Assembly: GCF_006345805.1 (NCBI RefSeq)
Contig: NC_042998.1
Location: 180,048,001-180,112,000, forward strand
Reading direction: 5' to 3'
Origin: Octopus sinensis
Lineage: Eukaryota
Length of the DNA: 64,000 nt
The position numbers and the translations under genes are program-made. Of this stretch, positions 16,432 to 60,868 are shown in pieces. Every line of letters begins with the position of its first letter. Position 1 is the stretch's first letter. The notes under the pieces were generated by a model that ran no database searches, was not told the DNA's origin, and was given only the letters and a program-made list of their open reading frames with translations.

Positions 16432-17176
16432 AGATTTCCAAGATATAGCCCCCAGATCATCACTGATTTTCCTCCATGTTTAACATTTGGAAGAAGGTAG
16501 TCTTCTTTTGGCTGTCTCCACATGTATACTCGGTTGATGACTCATCCGAGAAAATAACATTCTTCCACTGCTCTAGGGACCAATTCTGTAGGGTTTTACT
16601 CCACGTTTGTTTTTAAAAGTAATGGTTTTCTGATTGCAGCTCTACCCTTAAGATCCGGCTTTGTGCAGCTCCCGGCGAACAATTTTTGTGGAAACTGGGT
16701 TCTCGAGGTGGTCGTTAAGCTCTGCAGTAATTTTGGGAGAGCTGTACTTTTGCGTTCCTTTCTAACAATTCGTGTAAGAGTCCGACGGCCCCTATCTGGA
16801 AATTTTGGTTTTCTTCCGGAATTTTGCTTCGAAGAGGAGCTTTTTCCCTCCTTCTCAAAGGCTGTCATTACTTTCGGGACAGCACTTCTTGATACACCAA
16901 ACATTTCGGCTGTTTTCGTTACGCTGGCGCCTGCCATATGAACACCAACAATTTGAGCTCTTTGATAGTCCGATAGATCTGTCATTTTAATGAATTGTAA
17001 TTACCTTTTCTGATGATATCTGAAAAGAAACAGCAATTTTAACAAAACATATTAAGCAATATTAATAATAAAGCAAAAAACAAAAATAAAGAAGCTTTTG
17101 ACGGTTTTATAGATATTTCAAAATTATGATGCTATGATGCTAGGTGTTTCCATTATTTTGTTTTGTCCAACCCCTG
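16432..17176 (-). mobile_element. Truncated Tc1-like transposon (5' TIR plus N-terminal transposase)
   Basis: ORF 16596-16985 (MTDLSDYQRAQIVG...SGRKPK, HTH region). TIR CAGGGGTTGGACAAAACAAAATAATGGAAACACC on the minus strand. Same family as 46958-48208. Confidence 0.9.
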
Positions 17177-17661: not shown

Positions 17662-17799
17662 ATAGAATGGTTGTATACTGTCAATCTAACGTGAACGTGA
17701 CAGTAAGGGGTTACACCACCGCTGTTTAGCCCTAGGAAGCGGTGGTGCAACCCCCTACTGTCACGTTCACGTTAGATTGACAGTATACAACCATTCTAT
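17662..17799. repeat. Fold-back palindrome, 62-bp arms, 14-nt loop
   Basis: ATAGAATGGTTGTATACTGTCAATCTAACGTGAACGTGACAGTAAGGGGTTACACCACCGCT and its reverse complement with 2 mismatches; starts directly after a (TA)n tract. Confidence 0.95.
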
Positions 17800-17850: not shown

Positions 17851-17889
<39 letters not shown>

Positions 17890-17890
<1 letters not shown>

Positions 17891-18172
17891 AGTCGAAATT
17901 TACAGAAAGACAAAGAACGAAGACATGTGTATAAACAACAAGCAGGTGTATTATTTTGAGGCTCTGGTAGGCGAGAAAGTTCACATGATTGACCGCTAAA
18001 TCCACAAGTTTTTCTCATTTTCTCTCTGTTTATTTCCTCTTGCTCCTTTCTGTTGAAGAGCGTAGGCTCGAAACGTAAAATACTTTCTCACCTTCCCAAG
18101 CGTCAAACTAATACATCTACTTGTTGTTTATACACCTGTCTTCGTGTTTTGTTTTCCTATAAATTTCAACTA
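17890..18172 (+). mobile_element. Penelope-like pLTR-type non-autonomous element with an inverted partial copy and a minimal hammerhead-like motif
   Basis: 17890-17980 is a diverged reverse complement of 18082-18172. Motif CTGTTGAAGAGCGTAGGCTCGAAACGTA at 18050-18077. Flanked by TA-rich microsatellite; homolog at 57111-57302 (-). Confidence 0.6.
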
Positions 18173-18187
18173 TATATGTATATATAT

Positions 18188-19658: not shown

Positions 19659-20070
19659 AGGCGGTGAGCTGGCAGAATCGTTAGCACGCCGGACGAAATG
19701 CTTAGCGGTATTTTGTCTGTCATTACGTTCTGAGTTCAAATTCCACCGAGGTCGACTTTGCCTTTCATCCTTTCGGGGTCGATGAATTAAGTACCAGTTA
19801 TGCACTGGGGTCAATGTAATCGACTTAATCCATTTGTCTGTCCTTGTTTGTCCCCTCTATGTTTAGCCCCTTGTGGGTAATAAAGAAATAGGTATTTTGT
19901 CTGTCATTACGTTGAGTTCAAATTCCACCGAGGTCGACTTTGTCTTTCATCCTTTCGGGGTCGATAAATTAAGTACCAGTTATGCACTGGGGTCAATGTA
20001 ATCGACTAAATCCCTTTGTCTGTCCTTGTTTGTCCCCTCTATGCTTAGCTCCTTGTGGGCAATAATGAAA
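19659..20070 (+). mobile_element. Family 2 SINE with an internal ~184-bp tandem dimer
   Basis: GGCGGTGAGCTGGCAGAATCG head, B box GAGTTCAAATTCC, Nin-like GCCTTTCATCCTTTCGGGGTCGA; unit repeated from ~19892. Confidence 0.9.
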
Positions 20071-26575: not shown

Positions 26576-27160
26576 GTAATCCCCCAAACATTCTAATCTG
26601 TAAACATTGTCAAAAGTACTTTTAAGTTTCCAAAATAGCAAACACCTTTCACTGACATCTTAAGATCACATTGTCATGTTATAATCAAATTACTTTTAAC
26701 ATAAACTCCTAATGTTTTGACAGATTATTCTCTAGAAAAATACTTTGAGCATAAATGAAAATATGACACCCTAGTCATAACGCCAACTTGATCTTCTAAG
26801 TTGTCTCTTGAGGTCTCTGAGTGAAACTTGGGGTCAACCTGTACAAATACAAAGCAAAATCCAAACATATCTGATAATAATAATGATGATGGTGATGATT
26901 ATAATAATAAAAATTTCTAATTTAGGTAAAAGGCCAGACATATAGATTGAAAGTAACAGACGATTTATCACCGAAGTCAACATTGCAGTCTAAGATTAAT
27001 AAAAAAAAAGACGACCTTCACAAAATTTCTATTCAAACTATAAAGAATCGTATTATTTTATTCTCTGCTCTACCGATTCTGCTAATGTACATGCATGGGA
27101 ATGGCGGGAGCAAATGAAGAGTTGGGTCAAAGAAAAACATTCAAGTTACAACAAAACAGC

Positions 27161-27375
27161 CTAGCATTCAAAGTAAATATCATAGTGTTGCACCGTCTGA
27201 AGCCAGCTTTCTGCCAGTTCTTTGGTCCCACGCTGATACCAGTTTTTGTCCTTCGAGGTGAAGAACTCTTTCACAGAAGCTTCCACCTCTTCTTGGTTGA
27301 TTAGCGTCGCGAGTGCTGGAAGTGAGCCATTGAACAGAACAAATAATAATCTGAGCGAGCTAAGTCTGGAACTGG
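27161..27375 (-). mobile_element. Mariner transposase C-terminal fragment
   Basis: Minus strand PDLARSDYYLFCSMAHF, then after a frameshift NQEEVEASVKEFFTSKDKNWYQRGTKELAESWLQTVQHYDIYFEC*. Confidence 0.85.
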
Positions 27376-27829
27376 CAGAAAGGTGACTTCAGATGATGGT
27401 ACAATATGATGGCCCCTACTTTGAATGAATGCGAGGCTGCTTCTGTTTTAACTTGACGAATGAAGCAAATAGTTACTAAAATGTTGCAAAACTTTTGATT
27501 CAGCACAATGAAATGGAATGAATTACGATTCTACGTTTGGTACACTACATTGACAAGTTAGTAGATTAGTATTATTAGAAATCTTTTTATGTACGATTTC
27601 AAATTTTGTGTTGCGTATCTGCTCCACGATATTGTCAAAAGGTTTTTCATGCATAATAAGATGTCCTTTAGGAAACAAATGAACGGAACAGACTGACCAG
27701 TAGAACTGATGATTAGGAACCCCAGTGTGGGAGATAATAGAGAACACAATTTCGTGATAAATACTGTGGCATAGATATAAGTAAAGCTGTTTGTGGACAC
27801 TTTCCGAACACGAATTTTAAAGAATTAAT

Positions 27830-34778: not shown

Positions 34779-35204
34779 AAACTACCTGATAATTTCTTGT
34801 TAAGATTTCTTATTAAGATTTTATCCTTAATTGTTAAATTTGTTCCGAAGAAACACGTTTCTTACCGAAATGCAGTTCGAAAAATCCCGCCATTTACATG
34901 AATATGTGATGGATAAACATTTCCATGTGCTACGATGGAGGCGACAGTTGTCTGTTTGGTTCCGCTAGGTATGTTGGTTTTGTTTATTTTTAATATGTTC
35001 TGAATATGTTTCACTGATGAACAAAAGACGTAGATAATACGTTAATTGCGAAATCACAGGTGATCTGGAACTAAATTCTGTTTTTTAAATGTCTTGCTTC
35101 GAGAGCTGTATTCGGTACGATTCGTTTAATTTTGGTAGTAATGACTTTGAAAGTCCCTCCTAGCGTGTGGCATTTATGTGTAATAATGCCCTCTATACAA
35201 TATA

Positions 35205-35210
<6 letters not shown>
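34779..35210 (+). mobile_element. Hammerhead-bearing ~430-bp element (element C), diverged copy between (TA)n tracts
   Basis: Colinear with 55519-55876 and the reverse complement of 55097-55515; (TA)n on both sides. Confidence 0.85.
35008..35071 (+). ncRNA. Type I hammerhead ribozyme
   Basis: GTTTCA/TGGAAC stem I; CTGATGA; (A)CAA..ACGTA-GATAA-TACGT..TTG(C) stem II; GAAA; TCAC-AG-GTGA stem III; cleavage triplet ATC at 35063-35065. G10.1 is mutated to A. Confidence 0.75.
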
Positions 35211-35235
<25 letters not shown>

Positions 35236-46957: not shown

Positions 46958-48208
46958 CATGGGTTGGACAAAATAATGGAAACACCTGGCATCATAGCAT
47001 CATAATTTTGAAATATCTATAAAACCGTCAAAGCTTGTTTATTTTTGTTTTTTGATTTATCATTAATTTTGCTTCATATGTTTTGCTAAAATTGCTGTAT
47101 CTTTTCAGATATCACCAGAAAAAGGTAATTAAAATTCATTAAAATGACAGATCTATCGGAGTTTCAAAGTGATCAAAATTGTTGGTGCTCGTATGGCAGC
47201 CGCTAGCGTAACGAAAAAAGCCGTAATGTTTGGTGTATCAAGATGTACTGTCTCGAAAGTAATGACAGCCTTTGAGAAAGAGGGAAAAATCTCCTCCTGG
47301 AAACAAAACTGCGGAAGAAAACCAAAACTTTCAGATAGGGACCGTCGGACTCTTACGCGAATTATTAGAAAGGATCACAAAAGTACAGTTCCCAAAATTA
47401 CTGCAAGGCTTAATGATCACCTCGAGAACCCAGTTTCCACAAAAGCTGTTCGCCGGGAGCTGCACAAAGCCGGATTTCATGGGAGGTATGCAATCAGAAA
47501 ACCACTGCTATCAAAAACAAATGTTGCAAAGCGTTTACAGTGGAGTAGAAACCTACAGAATTGGTCCCTAGAGCAGTGGAAGAATATTATTTTCTCGGAC
47601 GAGTCATTCTTCACTTTATTTCCGACCATCGGCTTATTATACACAGCCAAAAGAAGCATTTGACCCAGGCTGCCTTCTCCCAACTGGAGGAAGATCTGTG
47701 ATGATCTGGGGGGAGGGGCTGTATCTGGGAAATCCGCCGTCTCAATGCTTTACCTTCATGGCAGAATTAATAGTCAAGATTATTTAAGAATTTTATCTGA
47801 TCAAATTCATCCTATGGTTGCGGAACTGTTTCCAGAGGGAAATGCAATCTTTTAGGATGACAATGCACCAATTCACACAGCTAAAGTTGTAATTGAATAG
47901 CACAAAGAACATTCTTGTAAAGTTGAACATCTTATCTGGCCACCACAGTCCCCAGATCTCAATATTATTGAATCTTTATGGTGCATTTTAGAAAAACGAG
48001 TAAGGAGTCGATATCTTCCACCATCATCACTACATGAACTGGAGACTGTTTTAGCTGAAGAATGCACAAAATTCCTTTGGAAACAATTCAAACTTTGTAC
48101 GAGTCCATACCTTGTAGAATTCAAGCTGTAATTACTGCCAAAGGCGGTCCTACTCCATATTAAAATAAATTTGTTTTAATGTGTTTCCATTATTTTGTCC
48201 TACTCCTG
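46958..48208 (+). mobile_element. Near full-length Tc1-like DNA transposon (~1.25 kb)
   Basis: TIRs CATGGGTTGGACAAAATAATGGAAACAC / GTGTTTCCATTATTTTGTCCTACTCCTG with a TA TSD on both sides. Confidence 0.95.
47144..48163 (+). pseudogene. Tc1 transposase pseudogene
   Basis: ATG at 47144; CGRKPKLSDRDRR, WKNIIFSDES, F*DDNAPIH, WPPQSPDLNIIESLW, AKGGPTPY*; frameshifts and stops. Confidence 0.9.
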
Positions 48209-54245: not shown

Positions 54246-55225
54246 CATACATACATACATACATGCATACATACATATTAAAAGGAAAGCATACAAAAAA
54301 TCATATATTTAAAATGTATTGAATTCTAGACATACTGCTAAAATTTCAGACAATTTGGATGAAAGTTGTTCACGTGGTTAGGTGATGAAATGATGTCAAA
54401 ATTTTTGGGACTATGTTCTTTTTTTGTGCATGTGATTTGCAGATGTCTTAAGATGTCGTCACGGTACTACCTCCCTGTGCGGCACGATGTTCTTGCTAAA
54501 ACAATTTACAATGCCATCCGCTAAAAAACTGTCCTGAAATTAACTTAGAAAACCATCTGCTATGGAAGACATTCATAAGCACCAACTCAAGGAATACTGG
54601 TGGTATATTCCCATCAAACCTTCTGTCAAATTTAAGCGTAACAGGGCGGATATTTTTGTTTGGGGCAGAGCGGCAAAGGTATGTACCATCATAGAGGTCA
54701 GCTGCCCTGCAGATATAAATATCTCTTTGAAAATGAAAGAAAAAGAGAATAACTATGAACAACCGCTTCGAAACCTCCAGCTTCTATATCTAGACTATGA
54801 ATCCATAGGCGTAGGAGTGGCTGTGTGGTAAGTAGTTTGCTTAACAACTACATGATTCTGGGTTCAAGGCGTGGCTCCTTGGGGATGTGTCTCCTACTAT
54901 AGCCTCAGGCCAACCAAAGCCTTGTGAGTAGATTTGGTAGTCTGAAACTGAAAGAAGCCCGTCGTATATATATATTTAACAATTAAGGATAACTTCTTAA
55001 TAAGGAATCTTAACAAGAAATTATCAGGTAGTTAGCGTGAAAAACCTCATAAGAGAAAAATTTGAGTTTAATTTTTTTCTTTTGAACATATTAATTTATA
55101 TTATATAGAGGGCATTATTACACATAAATGCCTCACACTAAGAGGGACATAAGTCATTACTACCAAAATTTCACTAATCATACCCAATGTAGTTTTTCAA
55201 AGCAAGAGATTTAAAAAATGAATTT

Positions 55226-55292
55226 AGTCCTATATCACCTGTGATTTCGCACTTACCGCATAAAAAATGCGTCTATACTCATCGGTAGAACT
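55226..55292 (-). ncRNA. Type I hammerhead ribozyme (CCGAUGA core variant)
   Basis: Reverse complement reads AGTTCTA-CCGATGA-GTAT..CGCAT..ATGCG..GTGC-GAAA-TCACAGGTGA-TA-TAGGACT. Confidence 0.7.
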
Positions 55293-55681
55293 GATTCTGA
55301 ACACATCATAAATAAACGACCAACACTGGCGAAGTCGAACAGGCAACTGCTCTCTCCGGCGAAGCACATGGAGATGTTTATAAATCATATATTCGGTAAA
55401 TGGCGGGCTTTTTCGAACTGCATTTCGGATAGGAAAAGTTTTTTCGGAATAAATTTAACAATTAAGGATAACTTCTTAATAAGGAATCTTAACAAGAAAT
55501 TATCAGGTAGTTAGCATGAATTTATTCCGTAAAAACTTTTCCTACTCGAAATGAAGTTCGAAAAAGCCCGCCATTTACCGAATATATGATTTATAAACAT
55601 CTCCATGTGCTTCGCCGGAGAGAGCAGTTGCCTGTTCGACTTCGCCAGTGTTGGTCGTTTATTTATGATGTGTTCAGAATC

Positions 55682-55748
55682 AGTTCTACCGATGAGCATA
55701 GACGCATTTTTTATGCGGTAAGTGCGAAATCACAGGTGATATAGGACT
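55682..55748 (+). ncRNA. Type I hammerhead ribozyme (CCGAUGA core variant)
   Basis: AGTTCTA/TAGGACT stem I (7 bp), CCGATGA, GCAT/GTGC stem II with inner CGCAT/ATGCG, GAAA, TCAC-AG-GTGA stem III, triplet ATA (predicted cleavage after 55741). Confidence 0.75.
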
Positions 55749-55866
55749 AAATTCATTTTTTAAATGTCTTGCTTTGAAAAACTGCATTGGGTATGATTAG
55801 TGAAATTTTGGTAGTAATGACTTATGTCCCTCTTAGTGTGAGGCATTTATGTGTAATAATGCCCTC

Positions 55867-55934
<68 letters not shown>

Positions 55935-55974
55935 TATATATGTATATGTATATATATGTATGTATGTATGTACG

Positions 55975-56006
<32 letters not shown>

Positions 56007-56764
56007 GTATATATGTATGTTTATGTATGTATATATGTTTGTGTGTCTGTATTTGTCTCCCCCACCATCGCTTGACAACTGATGTAGGTGTGTTTACGTC
56101 GCCGTAGCTTAACGGTTCGGCCAAAGTGACCGATAGAATAAGTACTAGGCTTACAAAGAATAAGACCTGGGGTCGATTTGTTCGACTAAAGGTGGTGCTC
56201 CAGTACGGCCGCAATCAAATGACTGAAACAAATAAAAGAATAAAAGAATACCAATAATAATTGGAGCACTAGGTTTTGTTAGTAAATGTTTAAATGAGAA
56301 TCTGGGTAAACTGGGATTTTCAGAACGAAGAATCGACCAGCTAACTCATACAAGTGCAGTTGGTGAGTGGAACAGTAAAAATATGCAAGACTTTTCTCAA
56401 GTTACAAATGTGAATTTGTCTGTGTTAACTACATCTCAAAGATGGAGCCTTGTATCTTTGTTGGACACCGGCTCCCTTCTCAGTGATTTATAATTTTTAA
56501 TAAGATTTATAATTAAAAAATAGAGAATACATACATATATACATATATCGGGGTCAATAAATTAAGTAACAGTTGCGTACTGGTGTCGATCTAATCGACT
56601 GGCACCTCCTACCCCAAAATTCGGGCCTAGTGCCTTGAGTAGAAAAGATTCTTGTACTTATTCTATTGGTTACTTTGGCCGGACCGCTATGCAACGTAGA
56701 CAAATACAGACGCAAACACACCTAGAAATATTCGCGCATTCGCACCTCCACATATATTAATATA

Positions 56765-56805
<41 letters not shown>

Positions 56806-56809
<4 letters not shown>

Positions 56810-56940
56810 ACAATCAAGGAACGGCCATAATAGGCCATTCACCCACTAGAAATAACAGCCAAAGCTTCAACCGCGGTTGAAGCTTTGCTGTTATTTCTAG
56901 TGGGTGAATGGCCTATTATGGCCGTTCCTTGATTGTTGAT
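56806..56940. repeat. Spacerless palindrome, ~67-bp arms, inside (TA)n
   Basis: Centre CCG|CGG at 56871-56876; the arms differ by one inserted C. Confidence 0.95.
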
Positions 56941-57110: not shown

Positions 57111-57302
57111 TAGGGAGAGTTTACGAAAAAAACAAAAGACGAAGACAGGTGGAGTACAAAACAAACAGATGTATTAGTATAACGCTCAGAAATAGAAAAA
57201 GTCTTTTACGTTTCGAGCCTACGCTCTTCTACAGAAAGGGACACAGAAAAAACAAGGGGAGAAAAATATGTGTGTAGTGGCTAACGATTTATCATGGAGA
57301 CT
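57111..57302 (-). mobile_element. Second copy of the 17890-18172 element, with a minimal hammerhead-like motif
   Basis: Minus strand CTTT-CTGTAGAAGAGCGTAGGCTCGAAACGTA-AAAG (core 57207-57234); (TA)n on both sides. Confidence 0.65.
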
Positions 57303-57494
57303 ATATATATATATATATATCAACGACGGGTTTCTTTTAGTCTCCCCTATCAAATCCAATAACAAGACTTTAGTCGACCCCAGCCTCCATTAGGTGACAA
57401 GAAATGAGACTAAATCCAGAACCATGTGGCTGGGAAGCAACCCCCCTCACCACTCAGCCACGCCTGCGTGTATGTATGTGTATACACACACACA

Positions 57495-60289: not shown

Positions 60290-60868
60290 AGTTAGCTGGG
60301 AGAATCGTTAGCACGCCGGCAAAATGCTTAGCGATATTTCGTCTACATTTACGTTCCGAATTCAAATTCCGAAGAGGTCGACTTTGTCTTTCATCCTTTC
60401 GGGGTCGATTAAATAAGTACCAGTTACGCACTGGGGTCGATGTAATCGACTTAATCCGTTTGTCTATCCTTGTTTGTCCTCTCTATGTTTAGCCCCTTGT
60501 AAGTAGTAAAGAAATATGTATTTCGTCTGCGGCTATGTTCCGGGTTCAGATTCCGCCAAGGTCAACTTTGCCTTTCATCCTTTCGAGGTCGATTAAATAA
60601 GTACCAGTTACGCACTGGGGTCGATAGAATCGACTTAATCCGTTTGTCTGACCGTATTTGTCCCCTCTGTGTGTAGCCCCTTGTGGGCAGTAAGGAAATA
60701 GGTATTTCGTCTATCTTTATGTTCTGAGTTCAAATTCCGCCGAGGTCGACTTTGCCTTTCATCTTTTTGGGGGTCGATAAATTAAGTACCAGTTGCGTGC
60801 TAGGGTCGATGTAATCAACTGTACCCCCTGCCCTAAAATTTCGGGCCTTGTGCATAGAGTAGACAATA
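60290..60868 (+). mobile_element. Family 2 SINE with an internal ~184-bp tandem trimer
   Basis: TATTTCGTCT unit starts at ~60335, ~60519 and ~60703. Confidence 0.9.

What the first reader, a model, noticed from the sequence alone, without database searches (positions are those of the whole stretch)
54974..55876. Hammerhead-ribozyme retroelement (retrozyme- or Penelope-pLTR-like) with a 479-bp monomer, partial tandem and fold-back copy, inserted in (TA)n
Seen: a non-coding unit whose end (54974-55041) recurs exactly 479 bp later, joined to a near-identical ~358-bp inverted copy across a 63-nt spacer. Each arm holds a complete type I hammerhead fold (55226-55292 minus, 55682-55748 plus), and the whole sits inside the TA tract of a SINE. 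Established: animal non-LTR retrozymes are tandem monomers with type I hammerheads that are processed to circular RNA, and Penelope-like elements carry hammerheads in pLTRs and insert as partial tandems with inverted truncated copies. Inference: a recently active, non-autonomous ribozyme retroelement family that prefers TA microsatellites. I cannot tell whether it is already catalogued.
Basis: partly seen in the sequence, partly recalled or inferred. Interest (0 to 1): 0.85.

Follow-up and report, generated by a model that had tools for sequence, protein, structure and literature searches.

The report
Hammerhead retroelement family inserting into (TA)n
A 479-base non-coding repeat carrying a predicted hammerhead ribozyme sits in a TA microsatellite as one unit plus a flipped copy; it is likely a new animal retrozyme-like element moved by Penelope-type enzymes, a kind of element already known.

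Summary
A 68-bp segment recurs 479 bp later (67 of 68 identical). Two 358-bp arms (7 mismatches) fold back across 63 nt. Each arm has a type I hammerhead fold, and the insert splits the TA tract of a SINE. New here: a second copy (80% alike, 34780-35213, (TA)n on both sides) and contigs of 4 laid runs (3 organism labels) show a multi-copy family. Its hammerhead core is mostly canonical, with a compensated stem I pair. All three junctions of the 479-nt unit recur, so the unit closes on itself with no ORF. Family copies end at (TA)n at two recurring points, about 136-145 and 257-259 nt past the cleavage site; this locus uses one at each end. That anatomy matches published Penelope-like insertions (inverted copy, one-sided tail). 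Best reading: a non-autonomous retrozyme-like element, reverse-transcribed from a circular or multimeric RNA by Penelope-type enzymes. This copy is probably dead-end: U4C core, one hammerhead per direction. Cleavage, circles, tandem arrays and the partner enzyme are untested, and Rfam gave no hammerhead hit. The kind is known; the family was not found in print.

The parts
54805..54964 (+). 5' half of the host SINE (target context)
   Evidence: 76-83% matches to 5 other window copies; SINE label recalled
54965..54975 (.). short (TA)n remnant, left side of the target tract
   Evidence: sequence
54974..55452 (-). one full 479-nt unit; the ribozyme-sense strand is minus (order Y, Z, X); 33% GC, no ORF over 52 aa from ATG
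   Evidence: junctions recur in family contigs
54974..55041 (-). segment X, outer copy; RNA-sense hairpin; its end (+257 to +259 from the cleavage site) abuts (TA)n
   Evidence: z -4.39, 0 of 300 shuffles; other loci ending here (X5 records 17 and 18)
55042..55097 (-). segment Z, A/T-rich link between Y and X; with X it forms the one-sided extension of about 120 nt
   Evidence: bridged to both neighbours in family contigs (table 8)
55098..55455 (-). left arm (segment Y)
55226..55292 (-). type I hammerhead motif, U4C core, predicted cut after 55233
   Evidence: family variation
55453..55520 (-). segment X, inner copy (partial tandem); fold-back junction at 55519-55520 with 2-nt microhomology
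55519..55877 (+). inverted right arm (segment Y), running from +257/259 to +136 of the unit and ending in (TA)n
55682..55748 (+). type I hammerhead motif, U4C core, predicted cut after 55741
55877..56036 (.). (TA)n/(TATG)n tract, right side of the target
56037..56250 (+). 3' half of the host SINE
34780..35213 (+). second, older family copy (X+Y, about 80% alike), (TA)n on both sides; hammerhead at about 35008-35071 with canonical U4 and a UC site but no 10.1-11.1 pair

Best explanation
This is one dispersed copy of a multi-copy, non-coding 479-nt repeat family with a conserved type I hammerhead motif, likely a non-autonomous retrozyme-like element copied into (TA)n by the reverse transcriptase and GIY-YIG endonuclease of a Penelope-like element. 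Shown: the unit, its closure on itself in family contigs, the conserved core, the TA targets and two recurring ends. Inferred steps: (1) source arrays are transcribed into multimers that the hammerhead cuts, probably giving 479-nt circles; (2) a Penelope-type enzyme nicks the TA tract and primes cDNA inside the RNA, at about +257/259 or +136/145 from the cleavage site; (3) here one cDNA started at +259 and ran 547 nt, more than one unit and across an intact cleavage site, so the template was a circle or an uncut multimer; (4) the opposite target strand primed a second cDNA at +136 on the same template, and the two cDNAs were joined head to head at a 2-nt microhomology at the foot of the X hairpin. 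I put two-ended priming at about 55% and snap-back of the first cDNA at about 35%. This copy is probably a dead end.
For: Second window copy, flanked by (TA)n, keeps core and stem III and has one both-sided and two one-sided stem I changes. Four laid runs (labels A, A, B, D) have depth in 30 of 30 bins. U4 is the majority letter in all four (3686/5242, 6253/7904, 447/447, 313/313). The paired stem I positions 55286 and 55232 both vary in all four runs, in X12 at the same depth (254.3) as one contig. Position 7 varies. None of the 40 of 99 listed differences touches C3, G5, A6, G8, A9, G12-A15.1 or stem III. Unit closure: X-Z is bridged by 31 or more letters each side in X12 record 1 (depth 369) and X8 record 25; Z-Y in records of all four runs (e.g. 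X4 record 10, depth 409); Y-X in the window twice and by 'goes back' joints (X8, side 33). The share of laid contigs running on into unlike sequence is 0 in all four runs. The circular unit folds at z -3.8, 0 of 60 shuffles, and has no ORF. TA ends: 23 contigs at 55097 in X5 and joints to 55089/55094 in X4, X5 and X8; X-end loci with other flanks in X5 records 17 and 18. Both arms share letters that are minority in the family (55284 and 55393 in 4 of 4 runs), so they came from one template. Literature: inverted 5'-adjacent copies, one-sided tails and microsatellite bias are typical of Penelope-like insertions (PMC8557442, passages and section 15). A Penelope-like enzyme cut and extended both target strands, preferred AT-rich DNA and started inside the RNA at two sites downstream of the hammerhead (PMC11167929, parts 1-2).
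Against: No Rfam hammerhead match. The hammerhead fold is 3.3 kcal/mol above the minimum-energy fold here and 6.6 above it in copy 2. The three-sequence covariation is not significant (160 of 500 shuffles). The G10.1-C11.1 pair is broken in copy 2 and altered in some contigs (55278, 55249). No tandem of two full units was seen; contigs cannot show arrays. The extension here is about 120 nt, against 30-40 nt for published tails. No partner ORF was found or linked. The +136/145 end is itself TA-like, so it could reflect microhomology and not a start site. The unit is longer than the 170-400 nt given for invertebrate retrozymes (PMC7229834). No listed joint shows this locus's own fold-back junction.
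Confidence: 0.7

Rival explanations
1. The pieces are only the terminal repeat (pLTR) and tail of an autonomous Penelope-like element, inserted as 5'-truncated stubs; the 479-nt unit is not an independent replicon.
For: The anatomy is that of Penelope-like insertions (PMC8557442). The window holds other short fold-back inserts beside (TA)n, two with a minimal-hammerhead-like motif. Most such motifs occur as single truncated copies (PMC4209133, parts 1-2).
Against: In an autonomous element the tail should run into the ORF. Here Z runs into X and X into Y in family contigs, and the share running on into unlike sequence is 0. No ORF in the unit. Only 24 of 348 loose ends were shown, so a low-copy ORF-bearing parent is not excluded.
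Confidence: 0.15
2. The template is a linear unit-length RNA whose ends lie at the X/Y boundary (a SINE-like element). The partial tandem comes from a template jump and the inversion from LINE-type twin priming, with no circle and no role for the ribozyme.
For: The outer end and the inner end of the inverted arm coincide at +257 to +259, as they would if these were the RNA's two ends. All three window copies keep the cleavage site intact. Ribozyme mutants did not affect insertion in vitro for one Penelope-like element (PMC11167929).
Against: The X-Y junction is common and nearly the same across runs (tables 5 and 5c) and in copy 2, which suggests a templated junction and not independent jumps. 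No poly(A) tail or target duplication is visible. The core is conserved across copies.
Confidence: 0.1
3. The inversion is an assembly artefact or a later DNA-level fold-back duplication unrelated to retrotransposition.
For: No laid contig shows this junction. Segment X is a hairpin that could seed template switching.
Against: The arms differ at 7 sites, with private letters on both arms. The SINE resumes after the right arm. The right arm ends where other family copies end.
Confidence: 0.05

Closest known systems
Metazoan non-LTR retrozymes (Cervera and de la Pena 2020, PMC7229834; Li, Clavereau, Pollet 2026, bioRxiv 10.64898/2026.07.22.740005)
   Same: Short non-coding unit, GC under 45%, one type I hammerhead per unit, strongly self-paired as a circle, more-than-unit genomic copy; proposed to be moved by Penelope-like elements.
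   Different: 479 nt (170-400 nt in the 2020 paper's invertebrates; 51-972 in the 2026 survey). Seen as dispersed (TA)n insertions with an inverted arm and two fixed ends, not as tandem arrays. Stem III is 4-5 bp and stem II is extended. In the text I read, neither paper describes TA targeting or inverted copies for retrozymes.
Endonuclease-bearing Penelope-like elements (Penelope/Poseidon, Neptune; PMC8557442, PMC4209133, PMC11167929)
   Same: Type I hammerhead about 90-145 nt upstream of the 3' end, partial tandem, inverted 5'-adjacent copy, one-sided extension, AT-rich or microsatellite targets, self-complementary stem III able to form a dimer (-11.2 kcal/mol).
   Different: No RT or GIY-YIG ORF. 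The unit closes on itself. The extension is about 120 nt, not 30-40. Stem III is longer than in minimal hammerheads.
Naiad elements (PMC8557442)
   Same: (TA)n targeting; tandem and inverted insertions.
   Different: Naiads lack canonical hammerheads and are described as long inactive in cephalopods.

Membership tests
type I hammerhead ribozyme | core CUGANGA / GAAA / UH with three stems, open end in stem I | tested here: met
   Descriptor scan, 3 hits vs 0 in 100 shuffled windows. Family majority U4. This locus is U4C, a natural variant with considerably lower activity in vitro (PMC3088659, passage).
type I hammerhead ribozyme | match to a curated covariance model | tested here: not met
   No Rfam hammerhead hit; the extended stem II may be why (inference).
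type I hammerhead ribozyme | self-cleavage at the UH site | not testable with these tools
   needs in vitro transcription
metazoan non-LTR retrozyme | short non-coding unit with GC under 45% and a type I hammerhead | tested here: met
   479 nt, 33% GC; longest ATG frame 52 aa when read round the circle
metazoan non-LTR retrozyme | [quoted passage not shown] | tested here: not met
   1.14 direct units, one hammerhead per direction; it would class as a monomer copy
metazoan non-LTR retrozyme | tandem arrays somewhere in the family | tested here: inconclusive
   All three unit junctions recur in contigs of 4 runs, but no piece spans a full unit; no genome held
metazoan non-LTR retrozyme | highly self-paired circular monomer | tested here: met
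   prediction only: z -3.8, 63% paired, 0 of 60 shuffles
metazoan non-LTR retrozyme | expression as unit-length circular RNA | not testable with these tools
   only contigs were available; the RNA label of run X12 is a guess
autonomous Penelope-like element | single ORF with RT and GIY-YIG endonuclease between pLTRs | tested here: not met
   no ORF in the unit; no contig share running into unlike sequence
autonomous Penelope-like element | insertion anatomy: partial tandem, inverted 5'-adjacent copy, one-sided tail, microsatellite target | tested here: met
   against PMC8557442; the tail is about 120 nt, not 30-40
autonomous Penelope-like element | sequence homology of the unit to the pLTR of a named element | not testable with these tools
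   no Dfam, Repbase or host genome available

The most novel reading that the evidence does not exclude
A retrozyme family whose insertions record Penelope-type chemistry on a circular RNA: both strands of a TA tract prime on one 479-nt circle at two fixed sites, and the second cDNA stops exactly where the first began. That would be direct genomic evidence that animal ribozyme circles are the templates of Penelope enzymes, in what is probably a cephalopod family.
Probability: 0.25. Interest if true: 0.7.

Novelty: new variant of a known kind. Interest (0 to 1): 0.45.

Why it matters
Which enzymes move animal retrozymes is still argued from co-occurrence and pLTR similarity (PMC7229834 discussion; the 2026 preprint). 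A high-copy family whose insertions carry Penelope-specific marks (inverted arm, one-sided extension, TA targets, two fixed ends) makes the question testable by counting ends in one assembly and by an in vitro reaction. The kind of element is known, so the surprise is moderate. The value is a clean, recent example and an apparently uncatalogued family present under at least three organism labels.

Tried and rejected
No whole genome is held, so copy number, arrays and partner linkage could not be measured. Rfam: no hammerhead match in 3 searches. Metagenome scan with a conserved 29-nt stretch: 0 loci. A looser hammerhead pattern gave 8 metagenome loci; all 8 were rejected as chance, because they match the unit over no more than 16-19 nt and I saw no stems by eye. 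The same pattern gave 0 viral loci. Runs: 20 of 24 listed hold part of the stretch, and no RNA holder is on record; this says nothing about expression. Only 4 of the 20 holders were laid. About half of the laid contigs overhang the ends and are probably the SINE, so contig totals and depths were not used as copy numbers. One strand-change joint inside X (55016/55194, run X5) is a single contig and was not counted as evidence of a hotspot. Formal covariation on 3 sequences was not significant, and the inner stem II of copy 2 was misaligned by one column. A coding role, including an endless frame on the circle, was rejected. A hammerhead on the unit's opposite strand was not found by the relaxed scan. 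Earlier scan findings: nothing in 3 look-ups. Not in print, as far as searched: hammerhead+Penelope+Octopus, ribozyme+cephalopod+retrotransposon, hammerhead ribozyme+octopus and four sequence motifs showed no description of this family. The supplement of PMC7229834 was unreadable, the preprint's supplements are closed, and the Octopus vulgaris repeat library of PMC13282606, Dfam and Repbase were not seen; the family may be catalogued there.

Full report
Observation. The layout described is present. Segment X (54974-55041) recurs 479 bp later at 55453-55520 with one mismatch in 68. Arms 55098-55455 and 55519-55876 are reverse complements with 7 mismatches in 358, separated by 63 nt. Read on the minus strand, which is the ribozyme sense of the left unit, the insert is: inverted Y, X, Y, Z, X. 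It lies between the two halves of a SINE. Four other window copies of that SINE have halves 11-113 bp apart, against about 1,070 bp here, so the insert split the SINE's TA tract. The host looks like an octopus from my recall of this SINE; I did not test that, and no genome is held.

The ribozyme motif. Both arms contain a type I hammerhead layout: stem I 7 bp, stem II 4 bp plus a 5-bp extension, stem III 4-5 bp, UA site, predicted cuts after 55741 and 55233. A descriptor scan gives 3 hits in the window and none in 100 block-shuffled windows, with thresholds chosen after seeing the motifs. Stem III is self-complementary and could pair between two copies (-11.2 kcal/mol). Against the motif: Rfam finds no hammerhead, and the active fold is 3.3 kcal/mol above the minimum-energy fold. 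Both arms have C at core position 4. That variant is reported to lower activity considerably in vitro while still allowing viroid infectivity (PMC3088659, passage).

A family, not a one-off. The window holds a second copy at 34780-35213, about 80% alike, with (TA)n on both sides; it consists of X followed by Y. Its motif has canonical U4, a UC site and an identical stem III. Stem I shows one both-sided and two one-sided changes, but the first pair of stem II is lost, and with three sequences the covariation is not significant. Twenty of 24 listed public runs, from 10 studies and 4 organism labels, hold part of the unit. I laid 4 of the 20. All are contigs, and all cover 30 of 30 bins. U4 is the majority letter in all four. 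The paired stem I positions 55286 and 55232 vary in all four, in run X12 at the depth of one contig that covers both. A G-U pair at 55229 is A-U in most depth of three runs, and position 7 varies in two. None of the 40 listed differences (of 99) touches the other core positions or stem III, but two rows alter the 10.1-11.1 pair in some contigs.

The unit closes on itself. X-Z is bridged with at least 31 letters each side by X12 record 1 (depth 369) and X8 record 25. Z-Y is bridged in records of all four runs. Y-X is in the window twice and in 'goes back' joints of three runs, one with 33 letters on the short side. X12 record 1 holds Y end, X, Z and Y start in one 157-nt contig, though its outer junctions have under 31 letters on one side. 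The share of laid contigs that run on into unlike sequence is 0 in each run. No piece spans a whole unit, so arrays are not shown, and only 24 of 348 loose ends were printed, so a rare ORF-bearing form is not excluded. Folded as a circle, the unit is 33% GC, 63% paired, z -3.8 (0 of 60 shuffles; the opposite strand gives z -2.5). It has no frame over 52 aa from ATG.

Insertion ends. Counting from the cleavage site, family copies meet (TA)n at two places. One is +136 to +145: the right arm here, copy 2, 23 loose-end contigs in X5, and joints in X4, X5 and X8. The other is +257 to +259: the left end here and X5 records 17 and 18, which have different flanks. Both RNA 3' ends of this locus point outward. 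The direct part is 547 nt, 1.14 units, and crosses an intact cleavage site, so its template was a circle or an uncut multimer (inference). The inverted arm runs from +136 back to +257/259, the same point at which the outer end starts. It joins the inner X at +192/194 through a 2-nt microhomology; copy 2 starts nearby at +200. X is a hairpin (z -4.39 in RNA sense, -1.46 in the other sense). The arms share letters that are minority in the family (55284 and 55393 in all four runs), so both came from one template. The left arm has three letters nearly absent from the four runs, which means those runs do not test this locus's junction. Two per cent divergence between arms would be about 3 million years at the octopus rate quoted in PMC13282606, if that rate applies.

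Mechanism. The best reading is a non-autonomous element copied by a Penelope-type RT and GIY-YIG endonuclease. PMC8557442 (passages and section 15) describes partial tandems, an inverted copy at the 5' end, a 30-40-bp tail at one end and microsatellite bias as typical of these elements. PMC11167929 (parts 1-2 of 4) shows one such enzyme cutting and extending both strands of AT-rich DNA and starting inside the RNA at two sites downstream of the hammerhead. It also found that ribozyme mutants did not impair insertion. Every structural mark is matched here except the tail length. Two-ended priming on one template (about 55%) and snap-back of the first cDNA at the X hairpin (about 35%) both explain the fold-back, and my data do not separate them. 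This copy cannot release a monomer by double cleavage, because each strand has one hammerhead, and a read-through transcript would bury it in a 358-bp duplex (inference).

Comparison with what is known. It works like a metazoan non-LTR retrozyme (PMC7229834: passages, sections 14 and 17; supplement unreadable). It also fits the 2026 preprint's proposal that these derive from Penelope-like pLTRs (parts 1-3 of 5). The locus fails that preprint's definition of an active copy and would class as a monomer; whether the family has arrays is open. It is not an autonomous Penelope-like element, since it has no ORF. PMC4209133 (parts 1-2 of 4) already reports pairs of hammerheads 100-700 bp apart on opposite strands in Schistosoma, so the fold-back pair is not new in kind. 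PMC13282606 (parts 1-2 of 3 and a supplement search) lists 190 Penelope-like families, 31 recently active, in Octopus vulgaris; its supplement does not mention hammerheads, ribozymes or retrozymes. PMC6765202 was seen as passages only. Four searches showed no description of this family, but repeat libraries were not seen.

Verdict. Real, correctly read, and of a known kind. It is a retrozyme-like variant seen as dispersed TA-targeted insertions with Penelope-type marks. Interest 0.45; 0.7 if the one-circle, two-primer reading holds (probability about 0.25).

Noticed in passing
window 17885-18180 and 57112-57303: A second repeat family between (TA)n tracts (84% alike over 112 bp), with a minimal-hammerhead-like motif whose core has U at position 6; the first copy has inverted arms. 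Looks like Penelope pLTR stubs.
   Followed up: partly
window 17662-17799 and 56806-56940: Near-perfect 135-bp hairpins (91% and 98.5%) directly beside (TA)n, unrelated in sequence to the finding; fold-back inserts in TA tracts seem common in this genome.
   Followed up: partly
window 54400-54800: Broken reading frames that resemble, by recall only, the restriction-like endonuclease end of an R4/Dong-type LINE, just upstream of the SINE; not scanned.
   Followed up: no
window 47148-47660 and about 16596-17000: Tc1/mariner transposase fragments; the first matches PF01498 at E 7e-16, the second is similar by eye.
   Followed up: partly
window 19707-20070 and 60335-60810: Tandem repeats of a 182-184-bp unit, 2.0 and 2.6 copies, similar to each other.
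   Followed up: no
run X5, positions 55016/55194 of the laid stretch: One contig (depth 69) changes strand inside the X hairpin, a different inversion junction in another family copy.
   Followed up: no
window 27141-27456: An inverted pair, 76% alike over 88 bp, not beside (TA)n; possibly a decayed DNA transposon.
   Followed up: no
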